Part shown: positions 4,348 through 36,439 of the stretch, one piece after another
How positions within the stretch are numbered: the stretch's first letter is position 1
Layout: every line of letters begins with the position of its first letter
Assembly (NCBI GenBank): GCA_050250255.1
Contig: JBFWOZ010000002.1
Coordinates: 6,116 to 70,115, forward strand
DNA: 64,000 bases
Origin: Bdellovibrionales bacterium
GTDB taxonomy: Bacteria; Bdellovibrionota; Bdellovibrionia; Bdellovibrionales; DASUEL01
Direction: 5' to 3'
Program-made: the position numbers and the translations under genes
The notes under the pieces: model-generated
The model's input: only the letters and a program-made list of their open reading frames with translations
What the model was told of the DNA's origin: nothing
The model's database searches: none

Positions 4348-4372
4348 ACGTCTTTCCTTGGAAAAAATTTCA

Positions 4373-4474
4373 ATCGCCAATTTGTAAAACCATCATCTGC
4401 TTGGTTGCAGGAGGACCGTTTCAGGTCCGACCCACTTGCACGCCTTGCATCTGATACTTTTACAAATTGGCTAT
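4373..4474 (-). repeat. Palindromic repeat element, copy 1 (diverged)
   Basis: 23-bp terminal inverted repeat ATCGCCAATTTGTAAAACCATCA / TGATACTTTTACAAATTGGCTAT, central GGACC-gtttca-GGTCC hairpin; minus-strand GATGCAAGGCG...GCAACCAAGCA resembles GAAGACGAGGCG...GCAACGAAGTA of copy 3. Confidence 0.65.
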
Positions 4475-4485
4475 GGGGTTCGCGA

Positions 4486-5297: not shown

Positions 5298-5386
5298 CTC
5301 GGGCCTCCGTCTTTAAAAGGTAGATTTATTTGCCACGGGGGGCAAAACCTGTCAACCCCTATAGACTTTTGGGTTTGAGAAATCTT

Positions 5387-5524
5387 CCAAACTCTCCATA
5401 AAAGTCGCAGACGAGGCGACCAAGGGAAGCGCGGGGACCTACTTCCTGTAGGCCAATGGAAGTGCCAGTGGCACTTTCGAAGCGACCCGATCGAGCCACA
5501 AAGTATCCAACGTTTATGGTTTGG
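5387..5524 (+). repeat. Palindromic repeat element, copy 2, with nested mini-palindrome at 5458-5478
   Basis: Core AGACGAGGCGACCAAGGGAAGCGCGGGGACCTACTTCCTGTAGGCC...AAGCGACCCGATCGAGCCACAAAGTATCCAA closely matches 31581-31663; imperfect terminal IR CCAAAC..CCATAAA / TTTATGGTTTGG; abuts the rng stop codon. Confidence 0.85.
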
Positions 5525-7045
5525 TTATGAACTTGTGATCTCGTACTGCTCAACATGGAAATCTGGTTCCACCTTAAAAACGAGTCGGCGGTTAAGGCGG
5601 TGCTCCAAATACTCCAACATTTCGCCCTCCTCCGCGTAAATCCAATCTGCCACGTCGGCATGGCAGTGAATCACGTCTGAACGCTTATCATTGGTAGGCC
5701 CCGCCTGCTCTATTTCGCGGAAAATGTCATGAGCGACGGTCTCTTTGCGTTTTGTAAAACCTTTCCCGTCACAATAGTAGCAAGGTTCGCATAAAGACTT
5801 CATAAGGCTTGGACGAACACGTTTTCGAGTCATTTCGACAAGTCCTAGCGAGGACATTCCAAGAACATTCGTTTTCGCACGATCTTTGGCTAACTCTTCT
5901 TTGAGTTGATTGAGAACTTTTTCGCGGCTGGTTTCCCGCTCCATATCAATAAAGTCGACAATAATGATCCCACCACAATTTCTGATACGAAGTTGGTGAG
6001 CGATTTCGCGAACGGCTTCAAGATTGGTTTTGAGAATTGTATCTTCTAAATCTTTTTTTCCCACGAAGCGACCGGTGTTGATATCAATCACCACAAGAGC
6101 TTCCGCCTCATCCACAACAATGTAGCCGCCGGACTTGAGCCACACACGGCGCTCGAGAGCACGGCTGATCTCAAGATCAATTTCGTAGAGGTCAAAAAGG
6201 GGGCGTTGTTTATTGTAATAACTGATTTTGTCTTTCAGCGAAGGCATGAATTGAGCAACAAAGTTGGTGATTTTTTGGTAGGCCTCGTGATTGTCGACAA
6301 CGACTTGAGCAATATCTTCGGTGAAAAGATCTCGCACCGCTCGAAGCTCAACATCAAGTTCCGCATGCACCAAACCTGGCTTGGTGCTCTTGCCGTAAGC
6401 TTCAAAAATTTGCTCTGAAAGTCTCACGAGATACTCGATATCCTCACGTATGCTTTCCTCTGAAGCTCCTTCGCCCGCAGTTCTAACAATCAATCCACCC
6501 TCTGCAGGTTTGAGTTTTTCCACAAGAAGTCGAAGTCGTTCTTTTTCAACTTCATCTTCGATACGACGAGAAACCCCAATGTGATTGAGAGTTGGCATGT
6601 AAACCACGTTACGACCCGGTAGAGAAATATGTGTTGTGATACGCGCCCCCTTAGTACCAAGGGGATCTTTTGCAACCTGTACTAAAAGTGATTGTCCTTC
6701 TTTGAGAAGATCTTGAATGAGTGGTTTTTCACTGCCGCGCTCTTCTCGAGGAACCTTTCCCGCACCTTGATCTTCATAGGCTTCATCGAGAAGAAGAACT
6801 TCTTCGCCCGGACTGACATCGGTACGCACATCGCCTACGTAAAGAAATGCGGCTCGATCGAGTCCAATATCCACAAATGCGGCCTGCATTCCTGGCAATA
6901 CCCGCACCACCTGTCCGCGATAAATAGAGCCTGCTAAACCTTTTTGATGGTTTCGTTCTGTCATGAACTCGATCAAAGCCCCGTGTTCCACGTGAGCGAC
7001 TCGAGTTTCTACAGGACGGACGTTGATGAGAATCTCTGCTGCCAT
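5525..7045 (-). CDS. rng: Rne/Rng family ribonuclease (RNase G-like)
   Basis: S1 domain GSIYRG..VLPGMQAAFVDIG, KDPLGTKGARIT, IDINTG, GGIIIVDFIDM, CxxC; 506 aa. Confidence 0.95.
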   Translation of the reverse strand: MAAEILINVRPVETRVAHVEHGALIEFMTERNHQKGLAGSIYRGQVVRVLPGMQAAFVDIGLDRAAFLYVGDVRTDVSPGEEVLLLDEAYEDQGAGKVPREERGSEKPLIQDLLKEGQSLLVQVAKDPLGTKGARITTHISLPGRNVVYMPTLNHIGVSRRIEDEVEKERLRLLVEKLKPAEGGLIVRTAGEGASEESIREDIEYLVRLSEQIFEAYGKSTKPGLVHAELDVELRAVRDLFTEDIAQVVVDNHEAYQKITNFVAQFMPSLKDKISYYNKQRPLFDLYEIDLEISRALERRVWLKSGGYIVVDEAEALVVIDINTGRFVGKKDLEDTILKTNLEAVREIAHQLRIRNCGGIIIVDFIDMERETSREKVLNQLKEELAKDRAKTNVLGMSSLGLVEMTRKRVRPSLMKSLCEPCYYCDGKGFTKRKETVAHDIFREIEQAGPTNDKRSDVIHCHADVADWIYAEEGEMLEYLEHRLNRRLVFKVEPDFHVEQYEITSS

Positions 7046-15222: not shown

Positions 15223-16050
15223 ATGGTTCACGAACGGCTCCAAGAGAGCGCTGCCTACATTAAATCTCAAACCAATCTCAAGCCTCGAGTTGGAATTATT
15301 TTGGGATCTGGATTTATTAATTTCGCTTCGCAGATTAAAGAAGAGGCGCGGATTCTTTTTGATGAAATTCCAAATTTCTTGCCTACTTCTAGCGACAGCA
15401 ATAATCCAGGTATGTTGATTTTGGGACGCGTGAATGATGTACCCGTAGCGGCACTCATTGGGCGGCTTCATTTTTATGAAGGTCACTCCATGGAGCGCGT
15501 GGTATTTCCCACTCGAGTACTTGCGATGCTTGGAATTGAAACTTTGATTCTGACCAACGCAGCCGGGGGCCTTGATACCGATATGGTTCCTGGCGATTTT
15601 ATGATTATCAAAGATCACATCAACATGATGGGTGATAATCCGCTCAAGGGTCCTAACTTAAAAAATCTTGGGCCGCGGTTTCCTGAAATGTCTCAGCCCT
15701 ATGATCTCCACTTGGTGGAACGTATGTCGGCGATTATGAAAATGCGAAATATGCGTCATCATATTGGAATATTCTGTGGTGTGAGCGGTCCTACCTTTGA
15801 AACCCCAGCCGAAGTGAACTACTTACGCTTGGTCGGTGCAAATGCGGTAGGAATGAGTACCGTTCCTGAGTCCATCGCAGCCAATCACCTAGGGCTTCGA
15901 GTGGCGGCATTTTGCTGCATCACCAATGAAGCCGGAGGCGGAAGAAATCATAAAATGCGACATAACGATGTCACCGAGATGGCTAAAAAGTCAGAAGAAC
16001 CGGTGAAAGAGTTTCTCACGGAGTTCATTCAGTTCCTCGGCCGCTCCTAA
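15223..16050 (+). CDS. punA: Purine-nucleoside phosphorylase (trimeric PNP-I family)
   Basis: GIILGSG, GRLHFYEG, TNAAGG, KDHIN, GPRFP, GPTFETPAE, VGMSTVPE, ITN; ATG 15223 is the likely start. Confidence 0.93.
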   Translation: MVHERLQESAAYIKSQTNLKPRVGIILGSGFINFASQIKEEARILFDEIPNFLPTSSDSNNPGMLILGRVNDVPVAALIGRLHFYEGHSMERVVFPTRVLAMLGIETLILTNAAGGLDTDMVPGDFMIIKDHINMMGDNPLKGPNLKNLGPRFPEMSQPYDLHLVERMSAIMKMRNMRHHIGIFCGVSGPTFETPAEVNYLRLVGANAVGMSTVPESIAANHLGLRVAAFCCITNEAGGGRNHKMRHNDVTEMAKKSEEPVKEFLTEFIQFLGRS

Positions 16051-30719: not shown

Positions 30720-30736
30720 TTTATAATGTGCTTTCC

Positions 30737-32053
30737 ATGTCGTTTGGTGTTTACGTCCATATTCCCTACTGCCTTCAGCGTTGCGTGTACTGCGACTTTG
30801 CCACGTTTGAAGTGGAACGTATCGGACATTCCGATGCGGCTTTGCGCGTGGACCCGCCAGAACAATACGTGAAACTCGTTTGTCAGGAGATTCGTCAACG
30901 ATCTGAAGAAATCTCGACTCGCAAAATCGACACGCTCTACTTCGGCGGAGGCACTCCTAGCCTCATCGAACCTCATCTGATCCTAGCAATTATTCAGGAA
31001 CTGAGGAACTCAGGATTTGAGTTGTGTCCTGATGCGGAAGCCACCATCGAAATCAATCCCGCCACCATCACGGAAGCCAAGCTCGACCAATATCTTAAAA
31101 TGGGTCTCAATCGGTTTAGCGTAGGAGTACAAAGCTTCACGGAAGCGCACCTTCAAAAGATGGGGCGCAAGCACTCTGCCCAAGACTCTCGCGAAACCCT
31201 CACGCTTCTCTCAAAATACAAAACGAATTTTAATTCCGATCTTCTATTTGCACTACCACACCAAACTTCCGAAGAGTTAAAGCGTGATATTGGGGAGATG
31301 CTTTCCTTTGGGCCTTCACATATTAGTCCCTACTGCCTCACGGTACCGGATAAAAATCCGATGGCGCACTCGAGACCTTCGGAAGAACACCAGGTAAAGA
31401 TGTTTGAAATCATCCATGAAGAGCTCACCAAAGCCGATTTCTTTCGATATGAGATCTCTAATTACGCGCTACCAGGTAAAGAGTCTCGACATAACCTTTT
31501 GTATTGGAAAGATGAGCCTTACTGGGGACTTGGATTAAGCAGTCACTCTTATTTACGTCCAGCTTGTCTCAAAGGATTGAAGACGAGGCGCGACCGAGGT
31601 GAGCGCGGAGGCCTACTTCCTGTAGGCCGCACAAGCGATCCGACCGAGCAACGAAGTATTCAATCCTTTGAGGCGAGCTGGGGTGTGAGGTTTTGGAATC
31701 CACCGACCTTTGAAGCTTATAAAAACCAGATTTTGCACCCTGATTTAAAAAGCGAGTTTTTAGGAATGCCTTCCCACCAGTTTGAGTTTTTAGAATTGCA
31801 TCAGGCCATTACAGATTATTGCCACACGGCGCTAAGAATGTCGGATGGTCTTTCTCAAAAGAACCTTAAGAATAAGTTTTCATCAGAAACTGTAGGCTCT
31901 ATTTCAGATCGTCTTAACCAAATTGATTCACGTCTTCTTACCAAAGAAGAACGTGGCTGGAAACTGACCGAAGAAGGTCTTGTTTTAAGTAACCTTGTCT
32001 TCGAAAAAATCACTTTTCTAAAGGAAGATCTGCCTTCAGGGGTGCTTTTTTAA
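30737..32053 (+). CDS. hemW: Radical SAM heme chaperone HemW with an in-frame palindromic insertion
   Basis: YVHIPYC..RC.YCDF, FGGGTPS, EINP, YEISNY, SRHNLLYW, GLG.SSHS; upstream of grpE. Confidence 0.92.
   Translation: MSFGVYVHIPYCLQRCVYCDFATFEVERIGHSDAALRVDPPEQYVKLVCQEIRQRSEEISTRKIDTLYFGGGTPSLIEPHLILAIIQELRNSGFELCPDAEATIEINPATITEAKLDQYLKMGLNRFSVGVQSFTEAHLQKMGRKHSAQDSRETLTLLSKYKTNFNSDLLFALPHQTSEELKRDIGEMLSFGPSHISPYCLTVPDKNPMAHSRPSEEHQVKMFEIIHEELTKADFFRYEISNYALPGKESRHNLLYWKDEPYWGLGLSSHSYLRPACLKGLKTRRDRGERGGLLPVGRTSDPTEQRSIQSFEASWGVRFWNPPTFEAYKNQILHPDLKSEFLGMPSHQFEFLELHQAITDYCHTALRMSDGLSQKNLKNKFSSETVGSISDRLNQIDSRLLTKEERGWKLTEEGLVLSNLVFEKITFLKEDLPSGVLF
31559..31681 (+). repeat. Palindromic repeat element, copy 3, inserted in frame in hemW
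   Basis: 123 bp (41 codons); 23-bp IR CCAGCTTGTCTCAAAGGATTGAA / TTCAATCCTTTGAGGCGAGCTGG (two G.U); central GGCCTAC-ttcct-GTAGGCC; homologous to 5409-5510. Confidence 0.88.
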
Positions 32054-35835: not shown

Positions 35836-36073
35836 GCCCCCTCCATTCTTCTCGATTTCTTTTTAGATTTTTTTAACCTTGTCTAGTTGCGCTTTAGTCT
35901 ATTGTTCAACCCGGCGCATTGGCTGTGGAAGGAGCCTCTGAAGAATGCTGGCACATGGCAAATTTTACAATTTTTTCGTGACAACTAATTTCAGAGATTA
36001 CATAAATCTTAAACTTCCTGTCTGAAGACCATCGTTTTCAGAGGAAGACCATGTTCTTAAGGAGGGTTGAGAC

Positions 36074-36439
36074 ATGAAAACAAGAGATTTGGAAAGATTT
36101 AAAAAAATTCTTCTGCATCAGAAGTCGAGTCTTCTCAATAAATCTGTTTGGTTTAAGGAAGAGAACCAAAAGGCGAAAGAGCAGTCGGGTGATGAAATCG
36201 ATCACGCTACTAGCGAAATCCATTTGAATTTAGACATTCGATTACACGAGCGTGAAAGAGTTCTAATTCAAAAGATCGAAACTGCTCTGGCAAAGATGTC
36301 AGTCGGAAGATACGGACGCTGTGAAGACTGTGAGGAGCCTCTAGATCTAAAAAGACTTGAAGCTCGACCAGTAGCCACTCTTTGTATTGCCTGTAAGGAA
36401 GACCAGGAAGATCGCGAAAAATTTTACGCGTTTTCATAA
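36074..36439 (+). CDS. dksA: DksA/TraR family transcription factor
   Basis: Coiled coil with DEIDHA tip, CEDC...RLEARP...CIAC zinc finger. Confidence 0.88.
   Translation: MKTRDLERFKKILLHQKSSLLNKSVWFKEENQKAKEQSGDEIDHATSEIHLNLDIRLHERERVLIQKIETALAKMSVGRYGRCEDCEEPLDLKRLEARPVATLCIACKEDQEDREKFYAFS

What the first reader, a model, noticed from the sequence alone, without database searches (positions are those of the whole stretch)
31559..31681. 123-bp palindromic repeat inserted in frame inside hemW, adding a ~41-aa peptide
After GLGLSSHSYL the protein carries RPACLKGLKTRRDRGERGGLLPVGRTSDPTEQRSIQSFEASWG before VRFWN, where HemW normally has only a few residues. The DNA is a long hairpin: a 23-bp terminal IR with both mismatches G.U-compatible on the mRNA strand, and a central GGCCTAC-ttcct-GTAGGCC. 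Its length is an exact multiple of 3, and its core recurs in non-coding DNA at 5409-5510. This resembles the Rickettsia palindromic elements (selfish repeats that donate peptide segments to proteins), here in a different lineage.
Basis: seen in the sequence. Interest (0 to 1): 0.72.

Follow-up and report, generated by a model that had tools for sequence, protein, structure and literature searches.

The report
Hairpin repeat lodged inside hemW gene
One copy of a hairpin-forming DNA repeat, which is common across many bacteria and nearly always lies between genes, sits in reading frame inside the hemW gene of this bacterium and adds 37 amino acids at a predicted surface loop, most likely as a tolerated accident of a mobile repeat rather than a gene-invading strategy.

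Summary
The 123-bp hairpin (23-bp stem, two G·T pairs, z = -8.4) lies in frame in hemW, and public contigs cover both junctions. The net gain over orthologs is 37 aa (111 bp), not 41, because the hairpin's right end overlaps a conserved Trp codon. The insert is a predicted flexible loop at a site that takes 4-16 residues, and once 46, in orthologs.

The repeat is not lineage-specific. It has 19 copies in this genome, occurs in 60 of 151 genomes of the order and in several other phyla, and shows strong covariation. It has no Rfam match and appears, by eye, to be the intergenic family Gmet_R1001-24 noted in Geobacter in 2009. Unlike Rickettsia RPEs, only 1 of 261 copies examined lies inside a recognisable gene, and lengths are not biased to multiples of 3. 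Copies are polymorphic between related genomes and often sit, in one orientation, just past stop codons. No mobilising enzyme was found. The scan has reported RPE-like inserts on other DNA, and a probable short doublet form of this family elsewhere in this genome.

The parts
30728..32053 (+). hemW (radical-SAM-family heme chaperone) ORF. The database protein P0001 (438 aa) starts at the ATG at 30737. The CxxxCxxC motif is intact; no frameshift or stop.
31559..31681 (+). Whole 123-nt hairpin, read in frame. The loop between Tyr272 and Trp315 (P0001 numbering) is 42 aa against 5 in most orthologs: net gain 37 aa (111 bp).
31559..31581 (+). Left arm of the 23-bp outer stem. Its outer 12 nt (31559-31570) share only 17-42% identity with the same stretch of 15 other copies in the genome.
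31582..31658 (+). Conserved core (77 nt) with internal-loop boxes and inner stems; 91-96% identical to the intergenic copies on C1, C3, C19 and C29.
31610..31628 (+). Central hairpin GGCCTAC-TTCCT-GTAGGCC. All cells are paired across 16 copies, and 6 of 7 pairs show two-sided changes.
31659..31681 (+). Right arm of the outer stem. Its outer 12 nt (31670-31681) are the Glu-Ala-Ser-Trp codons; the Trp codon is host sequence under constraint.
5384..5532 (+). Second, decayed intergenic copy between the stop of an rng/cafA-like ORF (named from its sequence by recall) and an rplU-like gene (same), with a small extra hairpin inserted near 5455-5476.
4370..4476 (-).

Best explanation
The segment is one copy of a widespread, gene-free hairpin repeat of about 125 bp that sits in frame in hemW and adds 37 residues at a predicted surface loop, most likely after a rare chance insertion that survived because the frame stayed open and the loop tolerates extra length.

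Shown: family membership, the intact frame, the net length, and the near-exclusive intergenic location of other copies. Predicted: the loop position.

Inferred mechanism: the family is non-autonomous and is moved in trans by an unidentified enzyme through a strand-specific, probably single-stranded step that places the element's right end next to a short target, usually a stop codon of a gene on the opposite strand. Copies that land in genes are mostly purged. After insertion, arm-to-arm copying (template switching) likely keeps the two arms paired and in this genome extends the stem into neighbouring host bases. That would explain why the hairpin (123 bp) is 12 bp longer than the net insert (111 bp) and includes the host Trp codon. 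Gene conversion between copies likely swaps cores. The peptide is probably translated and neutral; this is untested.
For: Family: 19 hits at E<=1e-3 (26 at E<=1) in G000; 60 of 151 genomes of the order; at least 123 pattern matches in genome contigs (80 loci listed) titled Desulfobacterota, Myxococcales, Bryobacterales/Terriglobia, Methylomirabilia/Rokubacteria, Syntrophomonadaceae, Ruminococcus and Bdellovibrionales.

Structure: 23 of 28 pairs show two-sided changes; 92% of cells pair, against 28-39% when partners are slid. Stem mismatches are 172 G·T against 53 A·C on one strand.

Mobility: orthologous sites in genus g31 are full, partly deleted or empty. One site just past a stop codon is filled in 13 of 30 genomes, with remnants in 2 more, by at least four sequence types (judged by eye), all in the same orientation.

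Polarity: the right end lies within 20 nt of a convergent stop in 141 of 261 copies; the left end lies near a same-sense stop in 30 of 261. Orientation follows the replichore in 23 of 25 (G058) and 30 of 31 (G046) copies.

Tolerance: AlphaFold mean pLDDT 91; the insert is low-confidence (about 45-53 per 10-residue block over 281-310) between strands 270-273 and 317-320; best fold match is HemN 1olt, TM 0.74. Ortholog loops are 4-16 aa, once 46.

Arm copying: 10 of 11 copies tested pair all 11 outermost bases with their own partner (the exception, 3 of 11, had hand-set ends), against a mean of 4.7 for swapped partners. A second hairpin family in G000 pairs a mean of 6.0 bases beyond my anchor, against 2.6 for swapped flanks (max 4.1 in 2000 shuffles), often across host stop and sense codons. 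In pdxJ and coaE the arm overlaps codons of a Leu conserved in relatives.
Against: No mobilising enzyme was found. Y1/RAYT genes do not track copy number: G020 has 91 copies and 0 Y1 hits, G006 has 0 copies and 17. DDE_Tnp_1_6 occurs in 1 of 24 genomes. Small GIY-YIG proteins occur in 3 of 24 (open frames 87, 93 and 154 aa) and none is next to an element. Reverse transcriptase is absent from G000 and from 5 of 5 g31 genomes. No neighbour gene recurs in 82 loci.

G000 itself shows little polarity (8 right-end against 10 left-end stops of 18) and no replichore bias (12 of 25), and the hemW copy lies sense to its gene.

The strand favoured by G·T pairs in g31 is the C-rich strand, opposite to the lagging-strand template used by IS200/IS605 elements (recalled), so the active strand is unresolved.

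In g31 and G020 the arms are element-encoded, with little or no extension (0.45 against 0.31, and 0.91 against 0.48 with null max 0.93). Arm extension is therefore not a family-wide rule. The 261 copies include orthologous, non-independent ones. No empty allele of this hemW from a close relative is available.
Confidence: 0.7

Rival explanations
1. RPE-type family: an element adapted to insert in frame into genes and donate peptides, of which the hemW copy is the first of many.
For: Size, hairpin form and an in-frame insert in a predicted surface loop match RPE descriptions (PMC10969869, PMC2229807). Arms overlap the last codons of pdxJ and coaE.
Against: 1 of 261 copies inside a recognisable gene. 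None found among the G020 copies inspected (68 near-full). No length or frame bias. A profile search with another reading frame gave 298 hits; of the best 150 most are short ORFs, and of the 83 scanned against Pfam none has the insert inside a domain. The hemW frame retrieved only hemW itself.
Confidence: 0.08
2. Domesticated structured-RNA element (terminator, mRNA-stability signal or small RNA) spread by recombination. Its structure is kept by selection on RNA, and the hemW copy may act on the mRNA as well as the protein.
For: Strong covariation including internal-loop pairs; G·U-type bias; position at gene ends; annotated as 'predicted short RNA elements' in Geobacter (PMC2700814).
Against: In most copies the G·T-favoured strand is antisense to the adjacent gene's mRNA. 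Sites are gained, lost and replaced by other subtypes among close relatives. Presence is patchy: 60 of 151 genomes, and 91 copies against 0 within genus g10.
Confidence: 0.12
3. Insertion itself creates an inverted copy of about 12 bp of target: a 99-bp core (31571-31669) plus an inverted duplicate (31559-31570) of the host codons at 31670-31681.
For: The arithmetic fits: removing 31559-31669 restores a 5-residue loop with Glu at position 3, found there in 10 of the 80 five-residue ortholog loops, where Pro (the alternative cut) occurs in 0. Outer 12 nt are 25-33% identical among copies whose cores are 91-96% identical. Arms include tRNA 3' ends or stop codons in several copies.
Against: In g31 and G020 arms are conserved element sequence with no such duplication. 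At one g31 site the empty allele shows the element ending at the stem ends. Three G000 copies share the same outer 5 nt. At orthologous g31 sites the arms stay while the cores are swapped, which alone can produce conserved cores in unrelated arms.
Confidence: 0.2
4. Assembly artefact, or a dead gene carrying a disruptive insertion.
For: The genome is a metagenome assembly, no listed contig spans the whole gene, and no RNA holder was listed.
Against: Both junctions are covered by zero-difference contigs, the right one also in a second run. The frame and motifs are intact and the protein is 65% identical to P0002 across both halves. No other close hemW copy was listed in G000: the next listed match is 28% identical.
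Confidence: 0.04

Closest known systems
Gmet_R1001-R1024, '24 predicted short RNA elements' of Geobacter metallireducens (Aklujkar et al. 2009, PMC2700814; passages and Supplementary Figure S1 read)
   Same: Read as the reverse complement, those 111-116-nt sequences show the same boxes around a central hairpin as our core (compared by eye). Multi-copy and intergenic; similar sequences were noted in other Geobacter and Desulfotalea, and my pattern scan hits Geobacteraceae and Desulfocapsaceae.
   Different: Described there only as an intergenic predicted RNA. In the passages I read there is no structure model, mobility evidence, stop-codon polarity, cross-phylum range or in-gene copy. I did not score those sequences with my model.
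Rickettsia palindromic elements (RPE-1 and others; seen through PMC10969869, PMC2229807 and PMC3733652 passages; the Ogata 2002 paper was not held)
   Same: About 105-150 bp, long stem-loop, multi-copy, in-frame insertion in a conserved gene, no known mobilising enzyme.
   Different: RPEs are often in ORFs and encode a conserved peptide; here 1 of 261 copies, with no frame or length bias. No match to TIGR01045 over its cut-off in 24 genomes, and no RPE family hit on HemW in NCBIfam at E<=1e-3.
REP doublets / REPINs with RAYT (Y1) transposases (PMC3733652 passages; REPIN details recalled)
   Same: Short extragenic hairpins, mostly downstream of coding regions and between convergent genes, with occasional in-frame copies.
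   Different: No RAYT gene is flanked by this element; the Y1 genes of G000 carry other inverted repeats. Y1 presence does not track copy number. The unit is one rod with a conserved structured core.
Classical MITEs (ERIC, RUP, Correia/NEMIS, YPAL; PMC2229807 and PMC3184786 passages)
   Same: 100-170 bp, terminal inverted arms, filled and empty alleles, rare in-frame fusions.
   Different: No consistent target-site duplication in the filled/empty comparisons. The core is conserved across phyla while the arms vary, insertion is polar, and no cognate DDE transposase was found (one family tested).
Ssn (GIY-YIG) nucleases with NTS/SRM hairpins (Chenal et al. 2025, PMC11893778 passages)
   Same: Hairpin repeats possibly handled as single-stranded DNA.
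   Different: SRMs are 20-50 nt and flank ssn genes. No small GIY-YIG gene in G000, and none next to an element.

Membership tests
Rickettsia palindromic elements (RPE) | About 100-150-bp multi-copy palindrome forming a long stem-loop | tested here: met
   (median 125 nt)
Rickettsia palindromic elements (RPE) | In-frame insertion in a conserved gene at a surface position | tested here: met
   (one case; position predicted, not solved)
Rickettsia palindromic elements (RPE) | A large share of copies inside ORFs, with a conserved encoded peptide | tested here: not met
   1 of 261; 22-45 of 101 open per frame and no mod-3 bias
Rickettsia palindromic elements (RPE) | Sequence similarity to RPE families | tested here: not met
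   TIGR01045: 0 of 24 genomes over cut-off; no RPE model hit on HemW. No DNA-level comparison with RPE sequences was made.
Rickettsia palindromic elements (RPE) | Host protein is made with the insert and stays active | not testable with these tools
   no RNA holder listed; needs proteomics and an assay
Gmet_R1001-24 family of Geobacter | Same central hairpin and flanking boxes | tested here: inconclusive
   motifs agree by eye in reverse complement; not scored with model R1
REP/REPIN-RAYT | Cognate Y1 (HUH) transposase gene flanked by the repeat and co-occurring with it | tested here: not met
Classical MITE | Terminal inverted repeats, no coding capacity | tested here: met
Classical MITE | Direct target-site duplication | tested here: inconclusive
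   a 4-nt direct repeat at one site (L104), none at the others compared; junctions variable
Classical MITE | Autonomous IS with matching ends | tested here: inconclusive
   none by half-element search in G000; DDE_Tnp_1_6 in 1 of 24 genomes; other DDE families not searched
Ssn-SRM | Small GIY-YIG gene flanked by the repeat | tested here: not met
Rfam RNA families | Match to a curated covariance model | tested here: not met
   0 matches at E<=1 for the window copy; no match over the element in 10 other loci

The most novel reading that the evidence does not exclude
The hemW insert exposes an uncharacterised, cross-phylum class of small mobile hairpins that is neither a classical MITE nor a RAYT- or Ssn-dependent REP. 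It inserts in a fixed orientation just past stop codons through a single-stranded DNA or RNA intermediate, using a mobiliser not among the families tested, and in some hosts rewrites its outer arm as an inverted copy of the target, here copying hemW codons into its own stem.
Probability: 0.22. Interest if true: 0.75.

Novelty: new member of a known kind. Interest (0 to 1): 0.4.

Why it matters
The in-frame insert is a clean extra example of a known route to new protein sequence, in an order where my searches found no report of it. On its own it is a rare accident rather than a new system. The family behind it matters more. It is a strongly covarying rod found across several phyla, has no Rfam model, and seems to have been noted only once as an intergenic predicted RNA. 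It generates hundreds of likely spurious database proteins (298 clusters in one frame) and re-inserts at the same post-stop site. Genus g31, with many complete genomes, offers filled, empty and replaced alleles with which its mobility can be tested.

Tried and rejected
Mobiliser searches, all negative: Y1_Tnp, GIY-YIG (53, 101), DDE_Tnp_1_6 (100), RVT_1 (113), recurrent neighbour ORFs in 82 loci (58), separated half-elements in G000 (85), model R1 over 59 sources including all fetched transposase, nuclease and RT loci (119). DUF559, IS110, IS630, IS91 and other DDE families were not searched.

An RT in G020 with elements nearby is part of a diversity-generating retroelement, and I rejected it as the general mobiliser because most element-rich genomes lack RT.

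Plasmid and phage BLAST: no match. Viral contigs: 2 pattern hits, one a real element.

Close hemW relatives: none above 65% identity, so no empty allele. No RNA holder listed; this says nothing on expression. The single-sequence fold (pLDDT 45) was not used.

Universal inverted target duplication: rejected as a family rule and kept as a rival for this genome.

Rows dropped: 8 of 120 proteins not matched by the loop pattern; 101 of 181 hits passed the anchoring filters; 3 false hits from another family were removed; 8 of 16 orthologous pairs failed the pattern; caught too few copies (74) and was not used; the G020 pattern found nothing and was redone. Of the best 150 hits, 83 were scanned against Pfam. 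In one search the L412 match lies away from the site and was not counted as a full copy.

Literature: eight searches found no description of this family in Bdellovibrionales or of its mechanism. Ogata 2002 and Chen and Shapiro 2003 were not held, so a relation to CIR or RPE at DNA level is untested. The Geobacter bemidjiensis supplements (PMC2996986) were not opened and may hold more members, including the in-gene family that paper mentions.

Full report
Observation. Window 31559-31681 folds into one rod with a 23-bp terminal stem (two G·T pairs on the + strand), a 77-nt interior and a central hairpin at 31610-31628. Folding z-scores are -8.41 as RNA and -6.86 as DNA, with 0 of 200 shuffles as stable. 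It lies in frame in a 441-codon ORF that passes the HemW cut-off narrowly, upstream of grpE and dnaJ. The window is C2:6116-70115 of a 3.09-Mb, 99% complete assembly. Homolog names point to Bdellovibrionales. Public contigs cover both junctions without differences and list no joint that skips the element; the best run may be the source of the assembly.

Size of the insert. Between SHS[YF] and WG the loop is 42 residues here. It is 5 in 80 of 111 other homologs matched (range 4-16; 8 of 120 not matched) and in 17 of 29 loci from relatives. The closest ortholog, P0002 at 65% identity, has 5. The net gain is therefore 37 residues (111 bp), 12 bp less than the hairpin. The hairpin ends in the codon of Trp315, which is nearly invariant, so its outer right arm is at least partly host sequence. 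One relative, G012, has a 46-residue loop at the same place that neither matches the repeat nor folds better than shuffles. The AlphaFold model built on 99 sequences has mean pLDDT 91, with the insert as a low-confidence loop between two strands. The model matches HemN 1olt (TM 0.74), where the site aligns to a short turn. The site is permissive.

The family. BLAST and iterated nhmmer found about 15 copies in the genome. A covariance model built from 16 copies found 19 at E<=1e-3 and 26 at E<=1, three of them in the window. Shorter members with a 50-60-nt interior also occur. The model hits 60 of 151 genomes of the order, including all 17 of genus g31, and 91 copies in the 1.9-Mb G020 against none in its congener G009. 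A pattern from the alignment matched at least 123 stretches in genome contigs. The 80 listed are titled as Desulfobacterota, Myxococcales, Acidobacteriota, Methylomirabilia/Rokubacteria, Bacillota and Bdellovibrionota, and most of those displayed fold into the same rod; part of that output was cut, and at least one hit is a chance match. Of 28 pairs, 23 show two-sided changes, and 92% of cells pair against 28-39% for slid partners. The copies are related, so this is not a probability. Stem mismatches are 172 G·T against 53 A·C on one strand. Rfam has no match. Supplementary Figure S1 of PMC2700814 aligns 24 intergenic 'predicted short RNA elements' of Geobacter metallireducens whose reverse complements show the same boxes and central hairpin (compared by eye).

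Where copies sit. Of 261 distinct near-full copies with enough flank, 12 are spanned by an ORF. Only hemW has recognisable conserved protein on both sides; the rest are ORFs without a Pfam match, or the element lies upstream of the domain. Genes without Pfam domains could be missed. Element length is not biased to multiples of 3 (35/32/34), and each frame is open in only 22-45 of 101 copies. Protein searches with the hemW frame returned only hemW. A profile of a second frame returned 298 clusters; the best 150 are mostly short ORFs, and none of 83 scanned has the insert inside a domain. The remaining four frames were not searched. By contrast, the right end lies within 20 nt of the stop of a convergent gene in 141 of 261 copies, against 30 for the left end and a same-sense stop (orthologous copies included). 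G000 itself is balanced (8 against 10 of 18). In two complete g31 genomes 23 of 25 and 30 of 31 copies have the G·T-favoured strand on the C-rich strand, while G000 shows 12 of 25.

Mobility. Among g31 genomes, orthologous sites are full, internally deleted, replaced by another core, or empty. One site just past a stop codon holds a full copy in 13 of 30 genomes and a remnant in 2, of at least four sequence types by eye and always in the same orientation. Junctions are variable, and no consistent target duplication was seen. In G020 copies often form head-to-tail runs in which the rightmost copy is intact. No enzyme could be tied to the family: Y1/RAYT, small GIY-YIG (101), DDE_Tnp_1_6 (100), reverse transcriptase (113) and neighbour-gene clustering (58) all failed.

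The arms. In G000 the outer 12 nt are 25-33% identical between copies whose cores are 91-96% identical, yet each copy pairs with itself. Two readings fit. In one, cores are swapped by gene conversion between old arms, as seen at orthologous g31 sites (129 of 143 arm pairs unchanged while cores differ). In the other, arms take up host sequence. For the second reading: the hemW stem includes the Trp codon; other stems include stop codons, tRNA 3' ends or the last codons of pdxJ and coaE; and an unrelated hairpin family in G000 pairs a mean of 6.0 bases beyond the anchor against 2.6 for swapped flanks. In g31 and G020 such extension is weak or absent. I take it to be a host process in this genome, probably template switching (established knowledge of quasi-palindromes, recalled), acting after or during insertion. 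Without an empty allele the true boundary is uncertain by up to 12 bp.

How it most likely works. A non-autonomous hairpin is moved in trans by an unknown enzyme through a strand-specific step (inferred from polarity and variable junctions). Insertions in genes are mostly removed by selection (inferred from 1 of 261). This copy persisted because the net change is a multiple of 3, the frame has no stop (both shown) and the loop is permissive (predicted, and supported by orthologs). Translation of the insert and normal HemW activity are untested. The rivals are an RPE-like gene-invading family (contradicted by the counts), a domesticated RNA element, inverted target duplication at insertion, and an artefact.

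Comparison and verdict. The hemW copy works like an RPE insertion but is not an RPE: the frequency criterion and the sequence test fail. In-frame copies of palindromic repeats are already reported for RPE, ERIC, REP families and Geobacter repeats (passages of PMC10969869, PMC2229807, PMC3733652, PMC2996986), so the phenomenon is known. The scan has noted similar cases on other DNA, and a two-hairpin repeat in this genome that probably is the short doublet form at C7:68547-68751. What remains unexplained is the family itself: its range, covariation, stop-codon polarity and missing mobiliser. Interest 0.4. Papers were seen as search listings, or as passages where cited; supplements S4 and S15 of PMC2700814 were read.

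Noticed in passing
G000 C1:110538-110655, C9:74818-74939, C11:76257-76404, C12:1997-2132, C16:43735-43862, C29:21292-21442, C33:15666-15789 and 15904-16029: A second hairpin family with a shared core and 26-40-bp arms that differ wholly between copies yet pair almost perfectly; none seen inside a convincing gene.
   Followed up: partly
G000 C4:65841, C20:29936, C53:12082 and 12411, C60:2493: A third family with a shared core and copy-specific paired arms.
   Followed up: partly
G000, 26 sites, e.g. C18:18018-18111, C28:18452-18545, C30:5085-5181: Doublets of about 85 bp made of the inverted repeats that flank the genome's RAYT-like genes. Pairing runs on into host codons; at C18 and C30 the two convergent ORFs end in the same 7-8 bases.
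   Followed up: partly
G000 C7:68547-68751, C41:2499-2702, C1:about 36050-36290, C15:8711, C28:38438, C92:135: Short members of the studied family (50-60-nt interior), some as inverted doublets inside a larger palindrome.
   Followed up: partly
L335:8-2400 (G020:C3): A diversity-generating retroelement (FGE-sulfatase target, RT, template-like repeat) with a decayed copy of the hairpin directly after the target's stop codon, where such systems use a cis hairpin (recalled).
   Followed up: partly
L321:1730-1866 (G020:C8:433729): In G020 a copy of the family sits directly after the stop codon of hemW; likely chance at 91 copies per genome.
   Followed up: no
L013 (G012 hemW): A 46-residue insertion of unknown origin at the same loop, not derived from this repeat.
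   Followed up: partly
window 5455-5476: A small extra hairpin inserted in the intergenic copy, resembling the RAYT-associated repeats of this genome.
   Followed up: no
L127-L129 (G102, G058, G066): The same outer arms as the G046 copy at this site, but an unrelated inner core.
   Followed up: no
L058, L064, L066, L072, L322: Copies abut tRNA genes; in L058 and L064 the stem includes 5-6 bases of the tRNA 3' end (tRNAs recognised by eye).
   Followed up: partly
P0121-P0270: The repeat gives rise to many short, probably spurious database proteins (298 clusters at E<=0.001 in one frame).
   Followed up: partly
window about 30812-30840 (hemW residues about 26-35): HemW of G000 and P0002 share a 9-residue insertion after the CxxxCxxC motif that other relatives lack.
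   Followed up: no
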